Shown one piece after another: positions 56,000 through 59,739 of a stretch of 64,000 nucleotides of DNA. The translations under genes and the position numbers were made by a program. Position 1 is the first letter of the stretch, and each line of letters opens with the position of its first letter. The stretch comes from Candidatus Latescibacterota bacterium (GTDB lineage: Bacteria; Latescibacterota; UBA2968). The stretch spans positions 6,144,001 through 6,208,000 of the forward strand of contig OZ244960.1 of the NCBI GenBank assembly GCA_965222605.1. Reading direction: 5' to 3'. Below the pieces are notes generated by a model that worked only from the letters and a program-made list of their open reading frames with translations, made no database searches and had not been told where the DNA came from.

Positions 56000-56028
56000 T
56001 TGACATGTGGGGCATTGCAGATTATCAT
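56000..56028 (+). promoter_or_regulatory. sigma70-type promoter of the sulfatase-like gene
   Basis: TTGACA, 17 nt, TATCAT. Confidence 0.6.
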
Positions 56029-56081
56029 GGAATAAGGATAGTTTAGACCAATCCATGTTTGAATTACACAAGGAGATTTTT

Positions 56082-57488
56082 ATGAATATAGTAGTAATTT
56101 GCTGCGATACGTTTCGCGCAGACATTGTTGGAGCAGGTAAAAAGTTGAGCCATGTGAAAACTCCTCATTTAGATCAGTTGGCTTCTGAGGGCTTGACTTT
56201 TGATCGCTGTTTTGCAGAGGGCTTGCCGACGATTCCGTTTCGGCGGTGTGTTTTTACGGGTATCCCATCTTTTCCCTGGCGGTTTGACACGCCGAATGAA
56301 GGACTACAGCCGGCAGGCTCTGGCTGGCATCCGATTCCGCCAGAGCAGGATACACTCGCGGAACGCTTGCACGATGCGGGTTTTGTCACGGGCCTGGTCG
56401 CGGATACCTATCACATGTTTAAGCCGACGCAGAATTTCACGCGGGGTTTTTTGTCGTGGCGCTTTATTCGCGGGCAGGAACAAGATGGATATCGCTCGGG
56501 GCCGCTATCGCGTATTGATCTGGCAGCACATGTGAGGGACGGAGATGCAGATCCCAGAAAACATGCGGTGATTGTTCAGTATTTGCTCAATATGCTGGAT
56601 CGGCAGGAAGGCGAAGAGAATTATCTCGCCGCTCAAGTGTTCCGCGAGGCATCGCAATGGGTAGAGGACAATAGGGGCAACAAGCCGTTTTTTCTATGGA
56701 TTGACAGCTTTAGCCCACACGAGTTATGGGATCCGCCCAGGCAGTATGCCGATGCCTATTTTTCAGATCCCTCGGTGAAGGATTATATCCACCACCGTGC
56801 CTTGTCCTTTGGCGATGCGACAGATGCGGAAATCGAGCGCACAAAAGCGTTGTATATGGGCTATGTCACGTTTGTGGATCGCTGGATTGGGCATTTATTG
56901 GAAACGATTGACCGATTGAATTTGCGGGACGATACGGTGGTGATGTTCATATCCGATCACGGCACGCAATTGATGGATAGGGGGCGGTTTGGCAAGGGCG
57001 GTAACGCGCTTTTTCCATTTAATACGCAGATCAATTGGGTCGTGCGCCACCCGGATGGACCGCGCGGACAGCAAACGGATATCTGGACGCAGAATCAGGA
57101 TATTACTCCGACGATTCTCAATATGCTGGACGTTGAGTACGAAGAGATGGATGGGGCAGATGCATGGGCAGGTGCAATGGGTGGAGCTGAACCTGCTCGG
57201 GATTATATCACAACGGGATGGGGAACGAGTTTTAATGTGCGGGATGATCGCTATAGCGTACACATGGATGTGGGAACAAGATCGCCACAGGCGACGGTTT
57301 ACGATTTGAGTGTGGATGCCGATGAGGAAAATCCCTTGAGCGATCCGCCCCGCGAAGTCGTCGCGCAGGCATTGGAACGGGCGCGTACTGTGATTGGCGA
57401 TTTTCCCGATGTGTTTAGTGCGTACAAACAAAGACACGCGGCACGGGCGATGCGGACGTTCATGAACAAGTATAATATTGGAACGTGA
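56082..57488 (+). CDS. Sulfatase-like hydrolase (alkaline phosphatase superfamily) with Thr at the nucleophile position
   Basis: NIVVICCDTFRAD, TPHLD, T-I-P-F-R..FTG, PHE.WDPP, SDHG. Confidence 0.85.
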   Translation: MNIVVICCDTFRADIVGAGKKLSHVKTPHLDQLASEGLTFDRCFAEGLPTIPFRRCVFTGIPSFPWRFDTPNEGLQPAGSGWHPIPPEQDTLAERLHDAGFVTGLVADTYHMFKPTQNFTRGFLSWRFIRGQEQDGYRSGPLSRIDLAAHVRDGDADPRKHAVIVQYLLNMLDRQEGEENYLAAQVFREASQWVEDNRGNKPFFLWIDSFSPHELWDPPRQYADAYFSDPSVKDYIHHRALSFGDATDAEIERTKALYMGYVTFVDRWIGHLLETIDRLNLRDDTVVMFISDHGTQLMDRGRFGKGGNALFPFNTQINWVVRHPDGPRGQQTDIWTQNQDITPTILNMLDVEYEEMDGADAWAGAMGGAEPARDYITTGWGTSFNVRDDRYSVHMDVGTRSPQATVYDLSVDADEENPLSDPPREVVAQALERARTVIGDFPDVFSAYKQRHAARAMRTFMNKYNIGT

Positions 57489-57640
57489 TTACTCCCAACG
57501 ATAGAGCAGTTGGGCTTCTTGGCGGTCAAGCCACCTGACTTTGTAATCCCAAAGTCAATATGTTTATCGCAGCATTGAGGTCTCTGTCCGTCATATAGCC
57601 ACACGCCTTACAATGATGCACACGCTGAGAAAGTGCTTTC
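57465..57640 (-). ncRNA. Predicted TnpB omega (re)RNA: scaffold over the tnpB 3' end and right end, guide from the flank
   Basis: Established IS200/IS605 architecture; scaffold ends at TCAC (57485); guide GTTCCAATATTATACTTGTT; the 5' boundary is a guess. Confidence 0.55.
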
Positions 57641-58650
57641 TTCTCTCTATGTCCGCATGCCGAGCAATCTTGTGAGGTGTATTCAGGATTTACGGCCTTG
57701 AATCCAATACCAGCTTCTTCCGCTTTGTATTCGAGACAATGCCGAAACAGTGACCATGCTACGTCTGCTATTGATTTAGACAATCGCCTATTCTTTTGCA
57801 TCGTTTTAACTTTCAACTTCTCGACGGCTATGAAGCCGTGACGATTGACAATTTTTCTTGATTCTTGATGGGCAAAGTTATGTCGCTTATTACGGATACG
57901 CTCATGCACTCTGGCAATTACTTTACGACGCTTTTCTCTTACGGCGTCGGTCTTAGGTCTTTTTTTTACCGCGTCCCATTTGCGCTGTGCTTTTGTAAGT
58001 GATTTTTGCTCTTTTCTAAAGAATCGCTGGTTGGCTATCGTCTCGCCATCACTGGTTACAGCAAAGGAATTGAGACCCACGTCAATGCCTGTTGGCGGAC
58101 GTTGCTCGTCGCAAGATTTTGGCTCGCCCATATCACAAGAAATAGTAGCGAACCACTTGCCCGTTGCCGTACGCGTGACTGTGCAAGATTTAGGAACGCC
58201 GTCAAGTGGCCTGTGCTGGACAATCCGAATACAGCCTATTTTGCCCAATCGCAAGCCCTTATCGTCCAATCGGCATCCATTGGAAAACTGAGGGTAGGTG
58301 ATAGAATCATAGCGATTCTGACCCTTGTATCTGGGAAAGCCAGCTTTCTCGCCCGTCTTTGCTTTTTCTTTGAGGCGACGAAAGAATGCTTTGAATGCCA
58401 GATCAACTCTTGTTGATACTTGTTGCAATACTTGACTATAGACTTGCTGGAATGCAAGACGCTGTTGCTTTATCAATGGTATTGTTTTGGTCTGGTCGTG
58501 ACGAGACAGAGACTTATTTTCACTTTCCCATGCTTGCACTCTATCACAGACAAGCTGGTTATATAGCAAGCGACATTCTTCAATATGTGCCAACAAGACT
58601 TTCTCTTGCTTTTTCGTTGGGCGCAATCTGTATTTGAAGGACTTAAGCAT
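57526..58650 (-). CDS. tnpB: RNA-guided endonuclease TnpB
   Basis: KSFKYRLRPT HTH, GFPRYK, RuvC D (GIDVG), E (AVEKL), zinc ribbon CSACG/CKACG, D (DRDLNAAINI). Confidence 0.95.
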   Translation of the reverse strand: MLKSFKYRLRPTKKQEKVLLAHIEECRLLYNQLVCDRVQAWESENKSLSRHDQTKTIPLIKQQRLAFQQVYSQVLQQVSTRVDLAFKAFFRRLKEKAKTGEKAGFPRYKGQNRYDSITYPQFSNGCRLDDKGLRLGKIGCIRIVQHRPLDGVPKSCTVTRTATGKWFATISCDMGEPKSCDEQRPPTGIDVGLNSFAVTSDGETIANQRFFRKEQKSLTKAQRKWDAVKKRPKTDAVREKRRKVIARVHERIRNKRHNFAHQESRKIVNRHGFIAVEKLKVKTMQKNRRLSKSIADVAWSLFRHCLEYKAEEAGIGFKAVNPEYTSQDCSACGHREKKALSQRVHHCKACGYMTDRDLNAAINILTLGLQSQVA

Positions 58651-58656
58651 AATAAA

Positions 58657-58685
58657 AATATATACTTATGTGCAATTTTTGTCAA
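58657..58685 (-). promoter_or_regulatory. tnpB promoter, probably leaderless
   Basis: Minus strand TTGACA, 17 nt, TATATT, then only 6 nt to the ATG; no SD sequence. Confidence 0.65.
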
Positions 58686-58842
58686 GCGAAATAGAATAAA
58701 AATATGGTCAGCGTACCAAAAACGCATAGTTCGTCTTTAACGATATGGCAATGTTCATATACGCTAAAGCTAAAAAAGGAAGCCCTCATATCCCACGCCT
58801 AAAGGACGTGGGTTTTACGGGCTATTTGATAAGGGGCTGAAT

Positions 58843-59739
58843 TTGAACTATACTGTTGAACAACATCCCGACCATAACCGGCTGTACCACATCACAATTG
58901 ATGCCGATGTCGCGGCGAGATTTGTGCGCGAGGTCGAAGATTTTTCGGAACAGCGATTGATTTATGTGCCGTATCTGAGACTGATCGCTGCGGATCACTT
59001 GCAAAACATCGTCGGTGGTGATTTCTCCGAGCATATCAATGCAATCGTTAGAGACCGCGCAACCGGCGGATTTACCCTTGCTGTTGCGGGTGGGTTTGAG
59101 ACGATGGATCAGCGCGTTGCTTTTGGCACGGCTGTTTCACATGCGATCGGGGTGCCCAATTTTGACGATATGACGGGGAATTATTACGCCTGTTTTGAGG
59201 TAAAGGATACGGATAGTAGCGATTCGTATTTGCGTCAGGCATATCGACTGTTCACGCTCCATACCGATGGCACATACATCCGCGAGCGCACAGACTGGAT
59301 TTTGATGATGAAGATGGCAGAGCACGATGCGGTGGGGGGGGAGTCGCGGCTGTTGCATTTGGATGATTGGGAGGCGTTAGAGCGATTTGCCAGTCATCCG
59401 TTGGCTTCTTTGCCTCTGGTCTATCACTCGCCGCCGAGTAAGAATTATCCCGTTAGGGTTGAAAAAACGACGTTTTACGAACAAGACGGCAAAGCATGCG
59501 TGTGTTTTATCGATCAGTTTGTTTATCCCGAGACCATTGAACAGGGCCGATATCTGCGCGATCTGTCCGATTCGATGGAAGCGTCGCAGGGAGTGGTCTC
59601 TGTGCCCTTGCCACCCGATCATCTCGTGGTGCTCAACAACCATTTCTGGCTGCACGGACGCGAAGCGTTTGAGAAACATCCCAATCTCTATCGCTTGTTG
59701 ATGCGACAGAGGGGATATTTCAGGAAGGTAAACGATTAA
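58843..59739 (+). CDS. glaH: Glutarate 2-hydroxylase (CsiD/GlaH, Fe/2OG dioxygenase)
   Basis: RATGGF, SDSYLRQ, LHTDGTY, GGESRLLHLDDWE, PPSKN, FIDQF, FWLHGR, LMRQRG. Confidence 0.9.
   Translation: MNYTVEQHPDHNRLYHITIDADVAARFVREVEDFSEQRLIYVPYLRLIAADHLQNIVGGDFSEHINAIVRDRATGGFTLAVAGGFETMDQRVAFGTAVSHAIGVPNFDDMTGNYYACFEVKDTDSSDSYLRQAYRLFTLHTDGTYIRERTDWILMMKMAEHDAVGGESRLLHLDDWEALERFASHPLASLPLVYHSPPSKNYPVRVEKTTFYEQDGKACVCFIDQFVYPETIEQGRYLRDLSDSMEASQGVVSVPLPPDHLVVLNNHFWLHGREAFEKHPNLYRLLMRQRGYFRKVND

What the first reader, a model, noticed from the sequence alone, without database searches (positions are those of the whole stretch)
57465..58845. TnpB element with readable TAM and guide, inserted so that it swaps TAA for TGA and leaves the host protein unchanged
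Seen (minus strand): TTAT | CAAATAGCCCGT-AAAA-hairpin ... GAAG-hairpin-AGTAA-TCAC | GTTCCAATATT. Established IS608-type guide rules predict TCxC from GAAG and TTxT from AAAA, matching TCAC and TTAT. Removing 57485-58828 gives ...ATT GGA ACA TAA GGGG CTGAAT TTG, that is I-G-T-stop followed by the glaH RBS. With the element present it reads ATT GGA ACG TGA, the same I-G-T-stop. The TAM therefore is the stop codon and the right end rebuilds one. All three RuvC acidic residues are intact, so this is a candidate compact nuclease with TAM 5'-TTAT and guide GTTCCAATATTATACTTGTT targeting the empty site. The omega RNA would be antisense to the host gene's 3' end, and the element separates glaH from its upstream promoter.
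Basis: partly seen in the sequence, partly recalled or inferred. Interest (0 to 1): 0.72.

Follow-up and report, generated by a model that had tools for sequence, protein, structure and literature searches.

The report
TnpB transposon sitting on a stop codon
An ordinary TnpB-carrying jumping gene has landed exactly on the stop codon of a sulfatase gene, and its own end supplies a replacement stop, so the host protein is unchanged; this is a neat consequence of how the transposon family picks its sites, not a new kind of system.

Summary
Window 57485-58828 (minus strand, 1344 bp) is an IS200/IS605-family, tnpB-only element. It is one of 20 full-length copies in this 6.3-Mb Latescibacterota genome, and all 20 have intact tnpB.

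- **Ends:** 19 of 20 copies end in TCAC. The left flank is TTAT here, and TTAA or TTAC in copies whose left-end guide tetranucleotide changes to match.
- **Empty site:** the predicted junction (57484 joined to 58829, no duplication) is present in 11 of 11 congener genomes fetched and in contigs of 2 of 4 public runs laid.
- **Stop swap:** ACA-TAA became ACG-TGA, so the sulfatase still ends I-G-T-stop.
- **TnpB:** it keeps residues matching the ISDra2 RuvC triad (D190/E277/D357).
- **Mobilisation:** a single IS200-type tnpA with near-identical hairpins lies elsewhere in the genome.
- **Recurrence:** 15 of 92 unique right-end junctions sit on a gene's stop codon, against about 8% expected. That is roughly twofold (nominal P about 0.01) and is not significant in the congeners alone.

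The geometry follows from TTAN/TCAN cleavage sites, which IS608 shares. A TTAT-TAM TnpB (ISDge10) is already characterised. Verdict: a new member of a known kind with a tidy, possibly under-noticed by-product.

The parts
57485..58828 (-). Whole IS200/IS605-family tnpB-only element (1344 bp)
   Evidence: Similarity among 20 genomic copies stops at exactly these two bases. The contig joint 57484->58829 skips exactly this stretch.
58829..58832 (-). TTAT: left cleavage/target site and TnpB TAM. Its complement ATAA holds the sulfatase's former TAA stop.
   Evidence: Relatives read AC|ATAA, AC|ATAG or AC|ATGA at this place.
58813..58816 (-). Left guide tetranucleotide AAAA, 4 nt 5' of the hairpin foot
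   Evidence: Its 4th base covaries with the 4th base of the flank: AAAA/AAGA with TTAT, AAGT with TTAA, AAAG with TTAC.
58792..58812 (-). Left subterminal hairpin (CCCACGTCC...GGCGTGGG)
   Evidence: DNA fold z -2.5. By eye, 19 of 21 bases match the hairpins flanking the genome's IS200-type tnpA.
58657..58685 (-). Promoter-like site TTGACA-17-TATATT. It ends 6 nt before the tnpB ATG, so the mRNA would be nearly leaderless.
   Evidence: Matches 11 of 12 consensus positions. The stretch is conserved in most copies listed. Function is inferred.
57526..58650 (-). tnpB, 374 aa
   Evidence: Three Pfam TnpB domains. ISDra2 TnpB 8bf8 matches at E 1.1e-50. D190/E277/D357 align to D191/E278/D361, and two CxxC pairs are present.
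57485..57664 (-). Presumed omega-RNA scaffold (3' end of tnpB plus right end), with stems at 57536-57557 and 57521-57535
   Evidence: In an alignment of 27 copies the two stems keep pairing through changes on both sides (12 and 9 sequences). Insertions fall only in the second loop. Extent and expression are inferred by analogy with ISDra2.
57515..57518 (-). Right guide tetranucleotide GAAG
   Evidence: Invariant in 27 of 27 aligned copies. Under the IS608 rule it predicts TCxC.
57494..57514 (-). Right subterminal hairpin (CCCAAC...GTTGGG)
57485..57488 (-). TCAC: right cleavage site and last four element bases. Its complement GTGA gives the last wobble base and the new TGA stop of the sulfatase.
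57465..57484 (-). Flank that would be read as the 20-nt omega-RNA guide. It is antisense to the last codons of the sulfatase.
   Evidence: Geometry. The role is inferred from ISDra2.
56007..57488 (+). Host sulfatase gene. Its stop codon 57486-57488 is element DNA.
   Evidence: Pfam Sulfatase E 1.3e-37. Longest ORF; the true start may lie downstream.
58843..59739 (+). Host csiD/glaH (glutarate hydroxylase family), now 1354 nt from the sulfatase stop instead of about 10
   Evidence: Pfam CsiD E 1.3e-114. Spacing in relatives.

Best explanation
This is a non-autonomous IS200/IS605-family insertion sequence that carries only tnpB (IS1341 type). It inserted, antisense to the host genes, 3' of a TTAT that lay on the TAA stop codon of a sulfatase gene.

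**Transposition (family mechanism, inferred here).** A Y1 HUH transposase supplied in trans cuts the top (minus) strand 3' of TTAT and 3' of TCAC. Each cut site is recognised by base pairing with the tetranucleotide just 5' of a subterminal hairpin: AAAA on the left and GAAG on the right. The single strand moves as a circle into a new TTAN site without duplicating the target.

**TnpB (inferred).** TnpB binds an omega RNA made from its own 3' end and the right end, which runs on into the flank. It would cut the vacated site (TTAT followed by GTTCC...), so the element is copied back in by recombination.

**Stop swap (shown).** The complement of the left site is NTAA and the complement of the right end is GTGA, in the same register. 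Any insertion antisense over a TAA stop therefore replaces NNx-TAA with NNG-TGA. The host protein keeps its length and, for TTAT sites, nearly always its last residue (here ACA to ACG, both Thr).

I read this as a built-in by-product of the end sequences. It makes stop-codon landings harmless, so they tend to be kept. I do not read it as a dedicated targeting device.
For: **Identity and boundaries**
- Three Pfam TnpB domains.
- 20 full-length copies with sharp common ends; 19 of 20 end in TCAC.
- All 20 copies have tnpB ORFs of 372-380 aa.

**Guide rule**
- The left guide and the flanking tetranucleotide agree in 16 of 20 elements of this genome.
- They agree in 29 of 31 parsed elements of other Latescibacterota genomes.
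- Three classes covary: AAAA/AAGA with TTAT, AAGT with TTAA, AAAG with TTAC.
- GAAG and TCAC are invariant in 27 of 27 aligned right ends.
- The rule is as published for IS608 (passages).

**Empty site**
- 11 of 11 congener loci are uninterrupted exactly at 57484|58829.
- A contig joint skipping exactly 1344 bases, with no shared letters, is present in runs X3 and X4. The same two runs also hold contigs across the left-end junction, 58641-58940.

**TnpB**
- ISDra2 TnpB matches at E 1.1e-50. D190/E277/D357 align to D191/E278/D361.
- D191 and E278 are shown to be catalytic in PMC8612924 (passages).

**Omega RNA**
- Two stems keep pairing through compensatory changes.

**tnpA in trans**
- One intact Y1_Tnp gene (141 bits, 160-aa open frame) lies at contig position 354399-354758.
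- Its flanking hairpins match this left hairpin at 19 of 21 bases, by eye.

**Stop swap recurs**
- An antisense gene ends at the right-end TGA in 6 of 23 unique right-end junctions of this genome and in 9 of 69 in congeners.
- 12 of these 15 have Pfam support.
- Three have a complete C-terminal domain ending 2-5 residues before the junction: SpoU methylase, QRPTase and peptidase M3.
Against: **Nothing functional was measured.** There is no RNA evidence for the omega RNA and no cleavage or transposition data.

**Doubts about trans-mobilisation**
- The right hairpin of this copy differs in sequence from the hairpins around the only strong tnpA, so mobilisation by that enzyme is not assured.
- Four of 20 elements here, and 2 of 31 elsewhere, break the guide rule (guide AAAC or AAAG with TTAT, ACAA with TTAT, AAGT with TTAG).
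- My parser required TTA, so only position 4 is truly tested. 10 of 41 foreign loci gave no parse.
- Copy orientation shows no bias toward the lagging-strand template (11 of 21). I recall such a bias being reported for IS608 and ISDra2.

**Limits of the excess over chance**
- It is modest. The null is 8.2% of non-disruptive TTAT sites, from my own crude ORF set.
- Observed: 15 of 92, P 0.0078. Without the index case: 14 of 91, P 0.016. Congeners alone: 9 of 69, P 0.11.
- With a null of 10%, the count of 14 of 92 (before L111 was added by hand) gave P 0.07.

**The swap is not always silent.** The last residue changed in 3 of the 6 cases in this genome (S to R, and I to M twice).
Confidence: 0.85

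Rival explanations
1. The stop-for-stop geometry is an evolved safe-harbour strategy. On this reading, the TTAN and TCAC end sequences are kept by selection because they give the element several hundred harmless landing sites per genome, namely the TAA stops of convergent genes.
For: - Landings on stop codons run about twice the neutral-site expectation: 15 of 92 against 8.2%, P 0.0078.
- The excess is strongest in this genome: 6 of 23, P 0.009.
- The TTAT/TCAC pair gives an A-to-G wobble change. By the standard code this is silent for all sense NNA codons except ATA.
- The TTAC/TCAC pair changes nothing in the last codon.
- The right end TCAC is invariant in 27 of 27 aligned copies.
- Two other TnpB families in the same genome end in TTGAC or GTCGA, which hold no stop in the complement. 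The property is therefore not universal and could be a trait.
Against: - Congeners alone show no significant excess: 9 of 69, P 0.11.
- TCAC is already fixed by its pairing with GAAG and by TnpA chemistry, so its invariance needs no extra selection.
- Purifying selection on random TTAN insertions would give the same pattern.
- The null model rests on a crude ORF set.
- The index case was chosen because of the feature.
- Most copies (77 of 92 junctions) are not on stop codons.
Confidence: 0.2
2. This copy is a stranded fossil. No enzyme in the cell can move it now, and its TnpB merely persists.
For: - Only one strong Y1 transposase gene is in the genome, plus two hits near the family cut-off.
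- The right hairpin of this copy differs from the hairpins around that tnpA.
- No orientation bias of the kind expected from replication-coupled insertion.
Against: - Filled and empty alleles both occur in the contigs of runs X3 and X4.
- A 96%-identical sister copy exists.
- All 20 tnpB ORFs are intact.
- The left hairpin matches the tnpA-flanking hairpins at 19 of 21 bases.
- The site is empty in all 11 congeners fetched, so the insertion is recent on the scale of the genus.
Confidence: 0.25
3. The TnpB here is domesticated, acting as a guide-RNA-directed regulator of the sulfatase/csiD operon (TldR-like) rather than as a transposon nuclease.
For: - The guide would be antisense to the 3' end of the sulfatase.
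- The element sits between two genes that are adjacent in all 11 relatives fetched.
Against: - The residues aligning to the RuvC triad are all present.
- The gene lies inside complete transposon ends.
- It is one of 20 similar copies at unrelated sites.
- The insertion is absent from all 11 congeners fetched and polymorphic in contigs.
- None of the 79 congener right-end junctions read shares this flank.
Confidence: 0.02

Closest known systems
IS608 of Helicobacter pylori (IS200/IS605 family archetype)
   Same: - Subterminal hairpins and no target duplication.
- Insertion 3' of a TTAN tetranucleotide.
- Cleavage sites read by a 4-nt guide 5' of each hairpin under the same pairing rule. IS608 has TTAC with AAAG and TCAA with GAAT; this element has TTAT with AAAA and TCAC with GAAG.
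- IS608's sites also have complements (GTAA, TTGA) with a stop in the same register, so the stop-for-stop geometry is shared. This last point is my inference from the published letters.
   Different: - No tnpA in the element.
- The left cleavage site lies 16 nt from the hairpin foot, against 19 in IS608. The right site ends 9 nt from the foot, against 10.
- The target is TTAT, not TTAC.
- In IS608 the wobble change would be G to T, which is silent less often.
ISDra2 TnpB of Deinococcus radiodurans (solved: 8bf8, 8exa, 8h1j)
   Same: - Full-length alignment, residues 3-366, at E 1.1e-50, with the acidic triad and zinc-finger cysteines aligned.
- The guide RNA comes from the right end, and the TAM equals the transposase target (passages of PMC8612924).
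   Different: - The TAM is TTGAT in ISDra2, whose complement has no stop codon.
- ISDra2 carries its own tnpA.
- Activity of the protein here is untested.
ISDge10 TnpB
   Same: Recognises a 4-nt TTAT TAM (passages of PMC13507860).
   Different: Sequence relationship to this protein was not tested here. That paper concerns genome editing, and the passages I read do not address insertion sites.
IS1341-type (tnpB-only) elements and their miniature derivatives
   Same: - tnpB alone sits between IS605-type ends and depends on tnpA in trans.
- A 299-bp derivative with both ends but no gene is also present in this genome.
- Mobility of tnpB-only elements despite scarce tnpA was noted in Haloquadratum (passages of PMC3119063).
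   Different: None in kind.
IStrons (IS605-type element fused to a group I intron)
   Same: Another way an IS605-type element makes its insertions harmless to the host gene (abstracts of PMC4227781 and 10.1101/2023.11.20.567912, search listing).
   Different: IStrons splice out of the transcript. Here no RNA processing is involved: the DNA end itself rebuilds the stop codon.

Membership tests
IS200/IS605 insertion sequences | No terminal inverted repeats and no target-site duplication | tested here: met
   The joint 57484->58829 has 0 letters shared by both sides. Relatives are colinear base for base across the site.
IS200/IS605 insertion sequences | Subterminal imperfect hairpins at both ends | tested here: met
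   Left 58812-58792, right 57514-57494. DNA folds z -2.5 and -1.8.
IS200/IS605 insertion sequences | Insertion 3' of a fixed tetra- or pentanucleotide that stays on the left flank | tested here: met
   TTAN lies to the left of 20 of 21 elements in this genome (one lacks a left end) and of 31 of 41 foreign loci. The other 10 were not parsed.
IS200/IS605 insertion sequences | Cleavage sites specified by pairing with a 4-nt guide 5' of each hairpin | tested here: met
   Position-4 covariation holds in 16 of 20 and 29 of 31 elements. The right pair GAAG/TCAC is invariant and fits the rule. Only position 4 varies, so positions 1-2 are consistent but not tested by covariation.
IS200/IS605 insertion sequences | Y1 HUH transposase TnpA | tested here: not met
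   None is inside the element (ORFs). One intact copy lies elsewhere in the genome. The element is therefore the non-autonomous, tnpB-only form of the family.
IS200/IS605 insertion sequences | Orientation bias toward the lagging-strand template (a reported tendency, recalled, not a definition) | tested here: not met
   11 of 21 copies are in the expected orientation relative to the GC-skew extremes at 3.05 and 0.04 Mb.
TnpB RNA-guided nucleases | HTH/WED-REC, RuvC and zinc-finger (TNB) domains with the D-E-D triad | tested here: met
   Pfam PF12323, PF01385 and PF07282. D190, E277 and D357 align to ISDra2 D191, E278 and D361. That D361 is catalytic is recalled, not read.
TnpB RNA-guided nucleases | Omega RNA encoded at the 3' end of tnpB and the right end, with the guide taken from the flank | tested here: inconclusive
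   Two stems have compensatory changes. The single-sequence fold is not better than shuffles (z -0.43). No Rfam family matched. No RNA reads were laid.
TnpB RNA-guided nucleases | TAM- and guide-dependent DNA cleavage | not testable with these tools
   Needs a biochemical or interference assay.

The most novel reading that the evidence does not exclude
IS608-like elements, with TTAN on the left and TCAN at the right end, may be built so that the complement of the target is a TAA stop and the complement of their own end is a TGA stop in the same register.

This would give them a genome-wide class of landing sites, the TAA stops of convergent genes, where insertion is silent at the protein level. 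On this reading the geometry is maintained by selection. It is a DNA-level counterpart of the intron trick used by IStrons.

A side effect is that every such copy makes a guide RNA antisense to the last codons of a host gene.
Probability: 0.2. Interest if true: 0.6.

Novelty: new member of a known kind. Interest (0 to 1): 0.4.

Why it matters
**As a locus.** This is a textbook-clean natural example of an IS605-type insertion.
- Both ends are defined.
- The guide rule is confirmed by natural covariation across three target classes.
- The empty allele was caught both in sister species and in the same population.

That makes the family, with 20 intact tnpB genes in one genome and TAM variants TTAT, TTAA and TTAC, a convenient natural series for asking how TnpB's TAM reading follows changes in the TnpA target.

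**As an idea.** The stop-for-stop swap shows how a transposon's end sequences can neutralise insertion damage without any RNA processing. If a large survey showed it is selected, it would add a simple principle to how these very abundant elements coexist with compact genomes.

**As a tool.** It offers little that is new, because a TTAT-TAM TnpB is already in use.

Tried and rejected
- **Rfam.** A scan of 57300-59000 at E up to 1 gave only a chance snoRNA hit on the wrong strand (23.2 bits against a cut-off of 39). There is no curated family for this RNA.
- **Single-sequence RNA fold.** The 3' region folds no better than shuffles (z -0.43), so I relied on the alignment instead.
- **Runs X1 and X7.** They showed no empty joint. 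These are contigs, so this says nothing about absence.
- **RNA runs X15-X20.** No statement on expression is made.
- **First count of stop-codon landings by open codons alone.**
  - It included L090 (the same site as L054), with 201 open codons. Its translation is Arg/His/Pro-rich with no start codon giving 90 aa, and looks like a shadow frame. I dropped it.
  - L088 and L122 (97 and 95 open codons) were dropped for the same reason.
  - L111 (86 aa, BrnA antitoxin family) fell below the 90-aa threshold. I added it by hand after Pfam supported it.
  - L019, L091 and L100 have no Pfam family but were kept as long ORFs.
- **Junction promoter-like site.** A site on the + strand spans the left junction (58826-58854, 10 of 12). 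Its second hexamer lies inside csiD, so it cannot drive csiD.
- **Lagging-strand orientation bias.** Not seen.
- **Other TnpB families in the genome as controls.** There are about 14 genes, with ends TTGAC and GTCGA. That is too few copies for a control count.
- **Literature.** Searches for a prior description of stop-codon rebuilding by IS200/IS605 ends (plus passages read) found none. The library lacks most subscription journals, and supplements were closed, so this is not proof that it is unpublished.

Full report
**What is in the sequence.**
- TTAT is at 58832-58829, and the element starts at 58828.
- A 12-nt spacer follows, then AAAA (58816-58813) and a hairpin (58812-58792).
- A promoter-like TTGACA-17-TATATT lies at 58685-58657, with the tnpB ATG at 58650.
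- A 374-codon ORF runs to 57526.
- Then come GAAG (57518-57515), a second hairpin (57514-57494), AGTAA and TCAC (57488-57485). The flank GTTCCAATATT... follows.
- The ORF carries the three Pfam domains of TnpB: HTH_OrfB_IS605 at 2.8e-10, OrfB_IS605 at 3.5e-21 and Cas12f1-like_TNB at 1.6e-24.
- The flanking + strand genes are a sulfatase (1.3e-37) and CsiD/GlaH (1.3e-114).

**The boundaries are real.**
- The window's own genome is a single 6,338,376-base contig. Record titles of related loci name its relatives as Candidatus Latescibacterota MAGs.
- It holds 20 full-length copies at 70-100% identity, plus fragments (30 BLAST segments).
- In all 20 copies, similarity stops at the same right-end base after ...GGGAGTARTCAC. 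19 end in TCAC and one in TCAT.
- On the left, similarity stops after a TTAN tetranucleotide.
- Both ends fold as single-stranded DNA hairpins better than shuffled sequence (z -2.5 and -1.8).
- All 20 copies keep a tnpB ORF of 372-380 aa.

**The guide rule.** For IS608 I read passages stating the following:
- The left cleavage site TTAC and the right site TCAA are recognised by pairing with guides AAAG and GAAT, which lie 5' of each hairpin (PMC3201880; PMC5934647).
- A+16 pairs with T-3, and A+17 pairs with T-4 (PMC5934647).

This gives: site position 1 pairs with guide position 2, site position 2 with guide position 1, and site position 4 with guide position 4. The last pairing is my inference from both published pairs.

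Natural variation tests the rule.
- In this genome 16 of 20 elements with a left end obey it. AAAA and AAGA go with TTAT, AAGT with TTAA, and AAAG with TTAC.
- Four do not: AAAC with TTAT twice, ACAA with TTAT, and AAGT with TTAG.
- In 41 loci from other Latescibacterota genomes, 31 could be parsed and 29 obey it. The tally is 12 AAAG/TTAC, 10 AAAA/TTAT, 5 AAGT/TTAA and 2 AAGA/TTAT. Two do not.
- My parser demanded TTA, so the real test is at position 4.
- GAAG and TCAC are invariant in 27 of 27 aligned right ends. That is consistent with the rule but not informative.

**The empty site.**
- A search with the CsiD protein in 40 relatives found the gene in all 20 congeners. The first 11 foreign loci were read.
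- In 11 of 11, the sequence matching the sulfatase 3' end up to 57484 is followed at once by the sequence matching 58829 onward.
- The junction reads ...AC then ATAA (3 loci), ATAG (4) or ATGA (4). The ribosome-binding site and the TTG start of csiD follow.
- The sulfatase there ends L/I-G-T-stop, with ACA as its last codon.
- Contigs of four public runs were laid on 56900-59400.
  - X4 has a 10,499-base contig, and X3 a 142-base contig, that go from 57484 straight to 58829. They skip 1344 bases with no letters shared by both sides.
  - The same two runs also hold a 300-base contig across the left junction (58641-58940).
  - X1 and X7 show no such joint.
- So the insertion is derived, and it is specific to this lineage among those examined. 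None of the 79 congener right-end junctions read has this flank. It also appears to be polymorphic in nature.

**The stop swap.** With the element present, the sulfatase reads ATT GGA ACG TGA. The G and the TGA are the complement of the element's last four bases. Without it, the relatives read ACA followed by a stop. The protein is unchanged. This follows from the sequences alone: the complement of TTAN is N'TAA and the complement of TCAC is GTGA, in the same register.

**How often it happens.**
- In this genome an antisense ORF of at least 180 aa ends at the right-end TGA in 5 of 20 full copies.
- It also does so at a 299-bp gene-less derivative with both ends (contig position 5359888-5360186).
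- The last codon changes are T to T, G to G, R to R, S to R, and I to M twice.
- I then took 80 right-end junctions from 16 congeners. 79 were read's pattern and all 80 by the looser pattern.
- After removing 11 orthologous duplicates, 92 unique junctions remain: 23 from this genome and 69 from congeners.
- Genes ending at the junction number 6 of 23 and 9 of 69. The 9 are 8 by the 90-aa rule plus an 86-aa BrnA-family gene added by hand. One 201-codon shadow frame and two roughly 96-codon frames were dropped.
- 12 of the 15 have Pfam support.
- Three carry a complete C-terminal domain that ends 2-5 residues before the junction: SpoU methylase, quinolinate phosphoribosyltransferase and peptidase M3.

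**Expectation.**
- The null comes from a greedy set of 5061 ORFs covering 90.5% of the genome.
- Stop-codon sites make up 8.1-11.4% of the TTAN sites that do not interrupt an ORF, and 8.1% for TTAT.
- Against 8.2%, the counts give:

| Set | Count | P |
|---|---|---|
| All junctions | 15 of 92 | 0.0078 |
| Without the index case | 14 of 91 | 0.016 |
| This genome | 6 of 23 | 0.009 |
| Congeners alone | 9 of 69 | 0.11 |

- With a 10% null, the count of 14 of 92 (before L111 was added by hand) gives P 0.07.
- The excess is about twofold and fragile. It fits retention of harmless insertions as well as any targeting.

**The nuclease and its RNA.**
- The protein aligns over residues 3-366 with ISDra2 TnpB (8bf8, 8exa) at E 1.1e-50.
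- D190, E277 and D357 fall on D191, E278 and D361, and two CxxC pairs are present.
- D191A and E278A abolish activity in ISDra2 (passages of PMC8612924). The role of D361 is recalled.
- In an alignment of 27 right ends, two stems keep pairing through changes on both sides. Window 57536-57557 shows U:A in 15 sequences and G:C in 12. Window 57521-57535 shows C:G in 11, U:A in 9 and U:G in 6.
- Insertions of 27-34 nt fall only in the second loop.
- No Rfam family matches.
- By analogy with ISDra2, the guide would be 57484-57465 and the TAM would be TTAT. These occur together only in the empty allele.
- A TnpB reading TTAT (ISDge10) is already characterised (passages of PMC13507860).

**Mobilisation.**
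- The element has no tnpA.
- The genome has one strong Y1_Tnp gene (141 bits, 160-aa open frame, contig position 354399-354758) and two hits near the cut-off.
- That gene is flanked by hairpins matching this element's left hairpin at 19 of 21 bases, by eye. The right hairpin here differs.
- Copy orientation shows no lagging-strand bias (11 of 21).

**Effect on the host.**
- In relatives csiD starts about 10 nt after the sulfatase stop. Here 1354 nt of antisense transposon intervene.
- A terminator-like hairpin on the + strand lies at 57536-57557, and only weak outward promoter-like sites were found.
- Polarity on csiD is plausible but untested.

**Comparison and verdict.**
- The locus meets every structural criterion of the IS200/IS605 family except carrying its own tnpA. 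That places it with the tnpB-only (IS1341-type) forms.
- The stop-for-stop geometry is shared on paper by IS608 (complements GTAA and TTGA). It is absent from two other TnpB families in this genome, whose ends are TTGAC and GTCGA.
- Three literature searches and two papers' passages gave no prior description of it. The library is partial and supplements were closed.
- I rate this a new member of a known kind.

Noticed in passing
own genome contig position 5359888-5360186 (inside locus L024); not in the window: A 299-bp derivative with a matching left end (TTAT, guide AAAA, hairpin) and right end (...GGGAGTCGTCAC) but no tnpB. It also sits on the stop codon of an antisense gene, which has an MrfA Zn-binding domain and 867 open codons.
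   Followed up: partly
own genome contig position 354399-354758 (locus L031): The only strong Y1 transposase gene in the genome. It is IS200-like, and the hairpins on both sides are nearly the same as the left hairpin of the element studied. An unrelated transposase-like ORF lies just upstream.
   Followed up: partly
window 58650-58685, minus strand: The promoter-like TTGACA-17-TATATT ends 6 nt before the tnpB ATG and no Shine-Dalgarno sequence precedes the ATG, so tnpB mRNA may be leaderless. The stretch is conserved in most copies.
   Followed up: no
own genome, all 21 elements: Element orientation shows no bias relative to the GC-skew replichores (11 of 21 as expected; skew extremes at 3.05 and 0.04 Mb). 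I recall a lagging-strand bias being reported for IS608 and ISDra2.
   Followed up: partly
own genome, e.g. contig positions 5557118, 5491658, 2320155, 500448, 2955978, 5764811: About 14 further tnpB genes belong to at least two other families, whose right ends are ...GTAGTTGAC and ...GGGAGCACGTCGA. One of them shares a similar left end with the family studied. Their end complements contain no stop codon.
   Followed up: partly
loci L059, L066, L068-L070, L074 (alignment A1 columns 136-169): Insertions of 27-34 nt, some themselves palindromic, sit in the loop of the second conserved stem of the presumed omega RNA.
   Followed up: no
own genome contig positions 2013147 and 233445; locus L071: A subfamily with guide AAAC but flank TTAT breaks the pairing rule at position 4. 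The copy at 233445 also has a truncated left hairpin. These copies may be immobile, or they may read the site in another register.
   Followed up: no
window 58826-58854, plus strand: The junction of the element end and the flank creates a promoter-like TTGATA-17-TATACT (10 of 12). Its second hexamer lies inside csiD, so it is probably meaningless.
   Followed up: no
runs X3 and X4 on window 56900-59400: Contigs of the empty allele and contigs across the left junction occur in the same runs, so both alleles seem to coexist in those samples.
   Followed up: partly
loci L157 and L111 (congener genomes): Two of the stop-codon landings are on small antitoxin-family genes (HTH_3/HigA-like, 104 aa; BrnA, 86 aa).
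   Followed up: no
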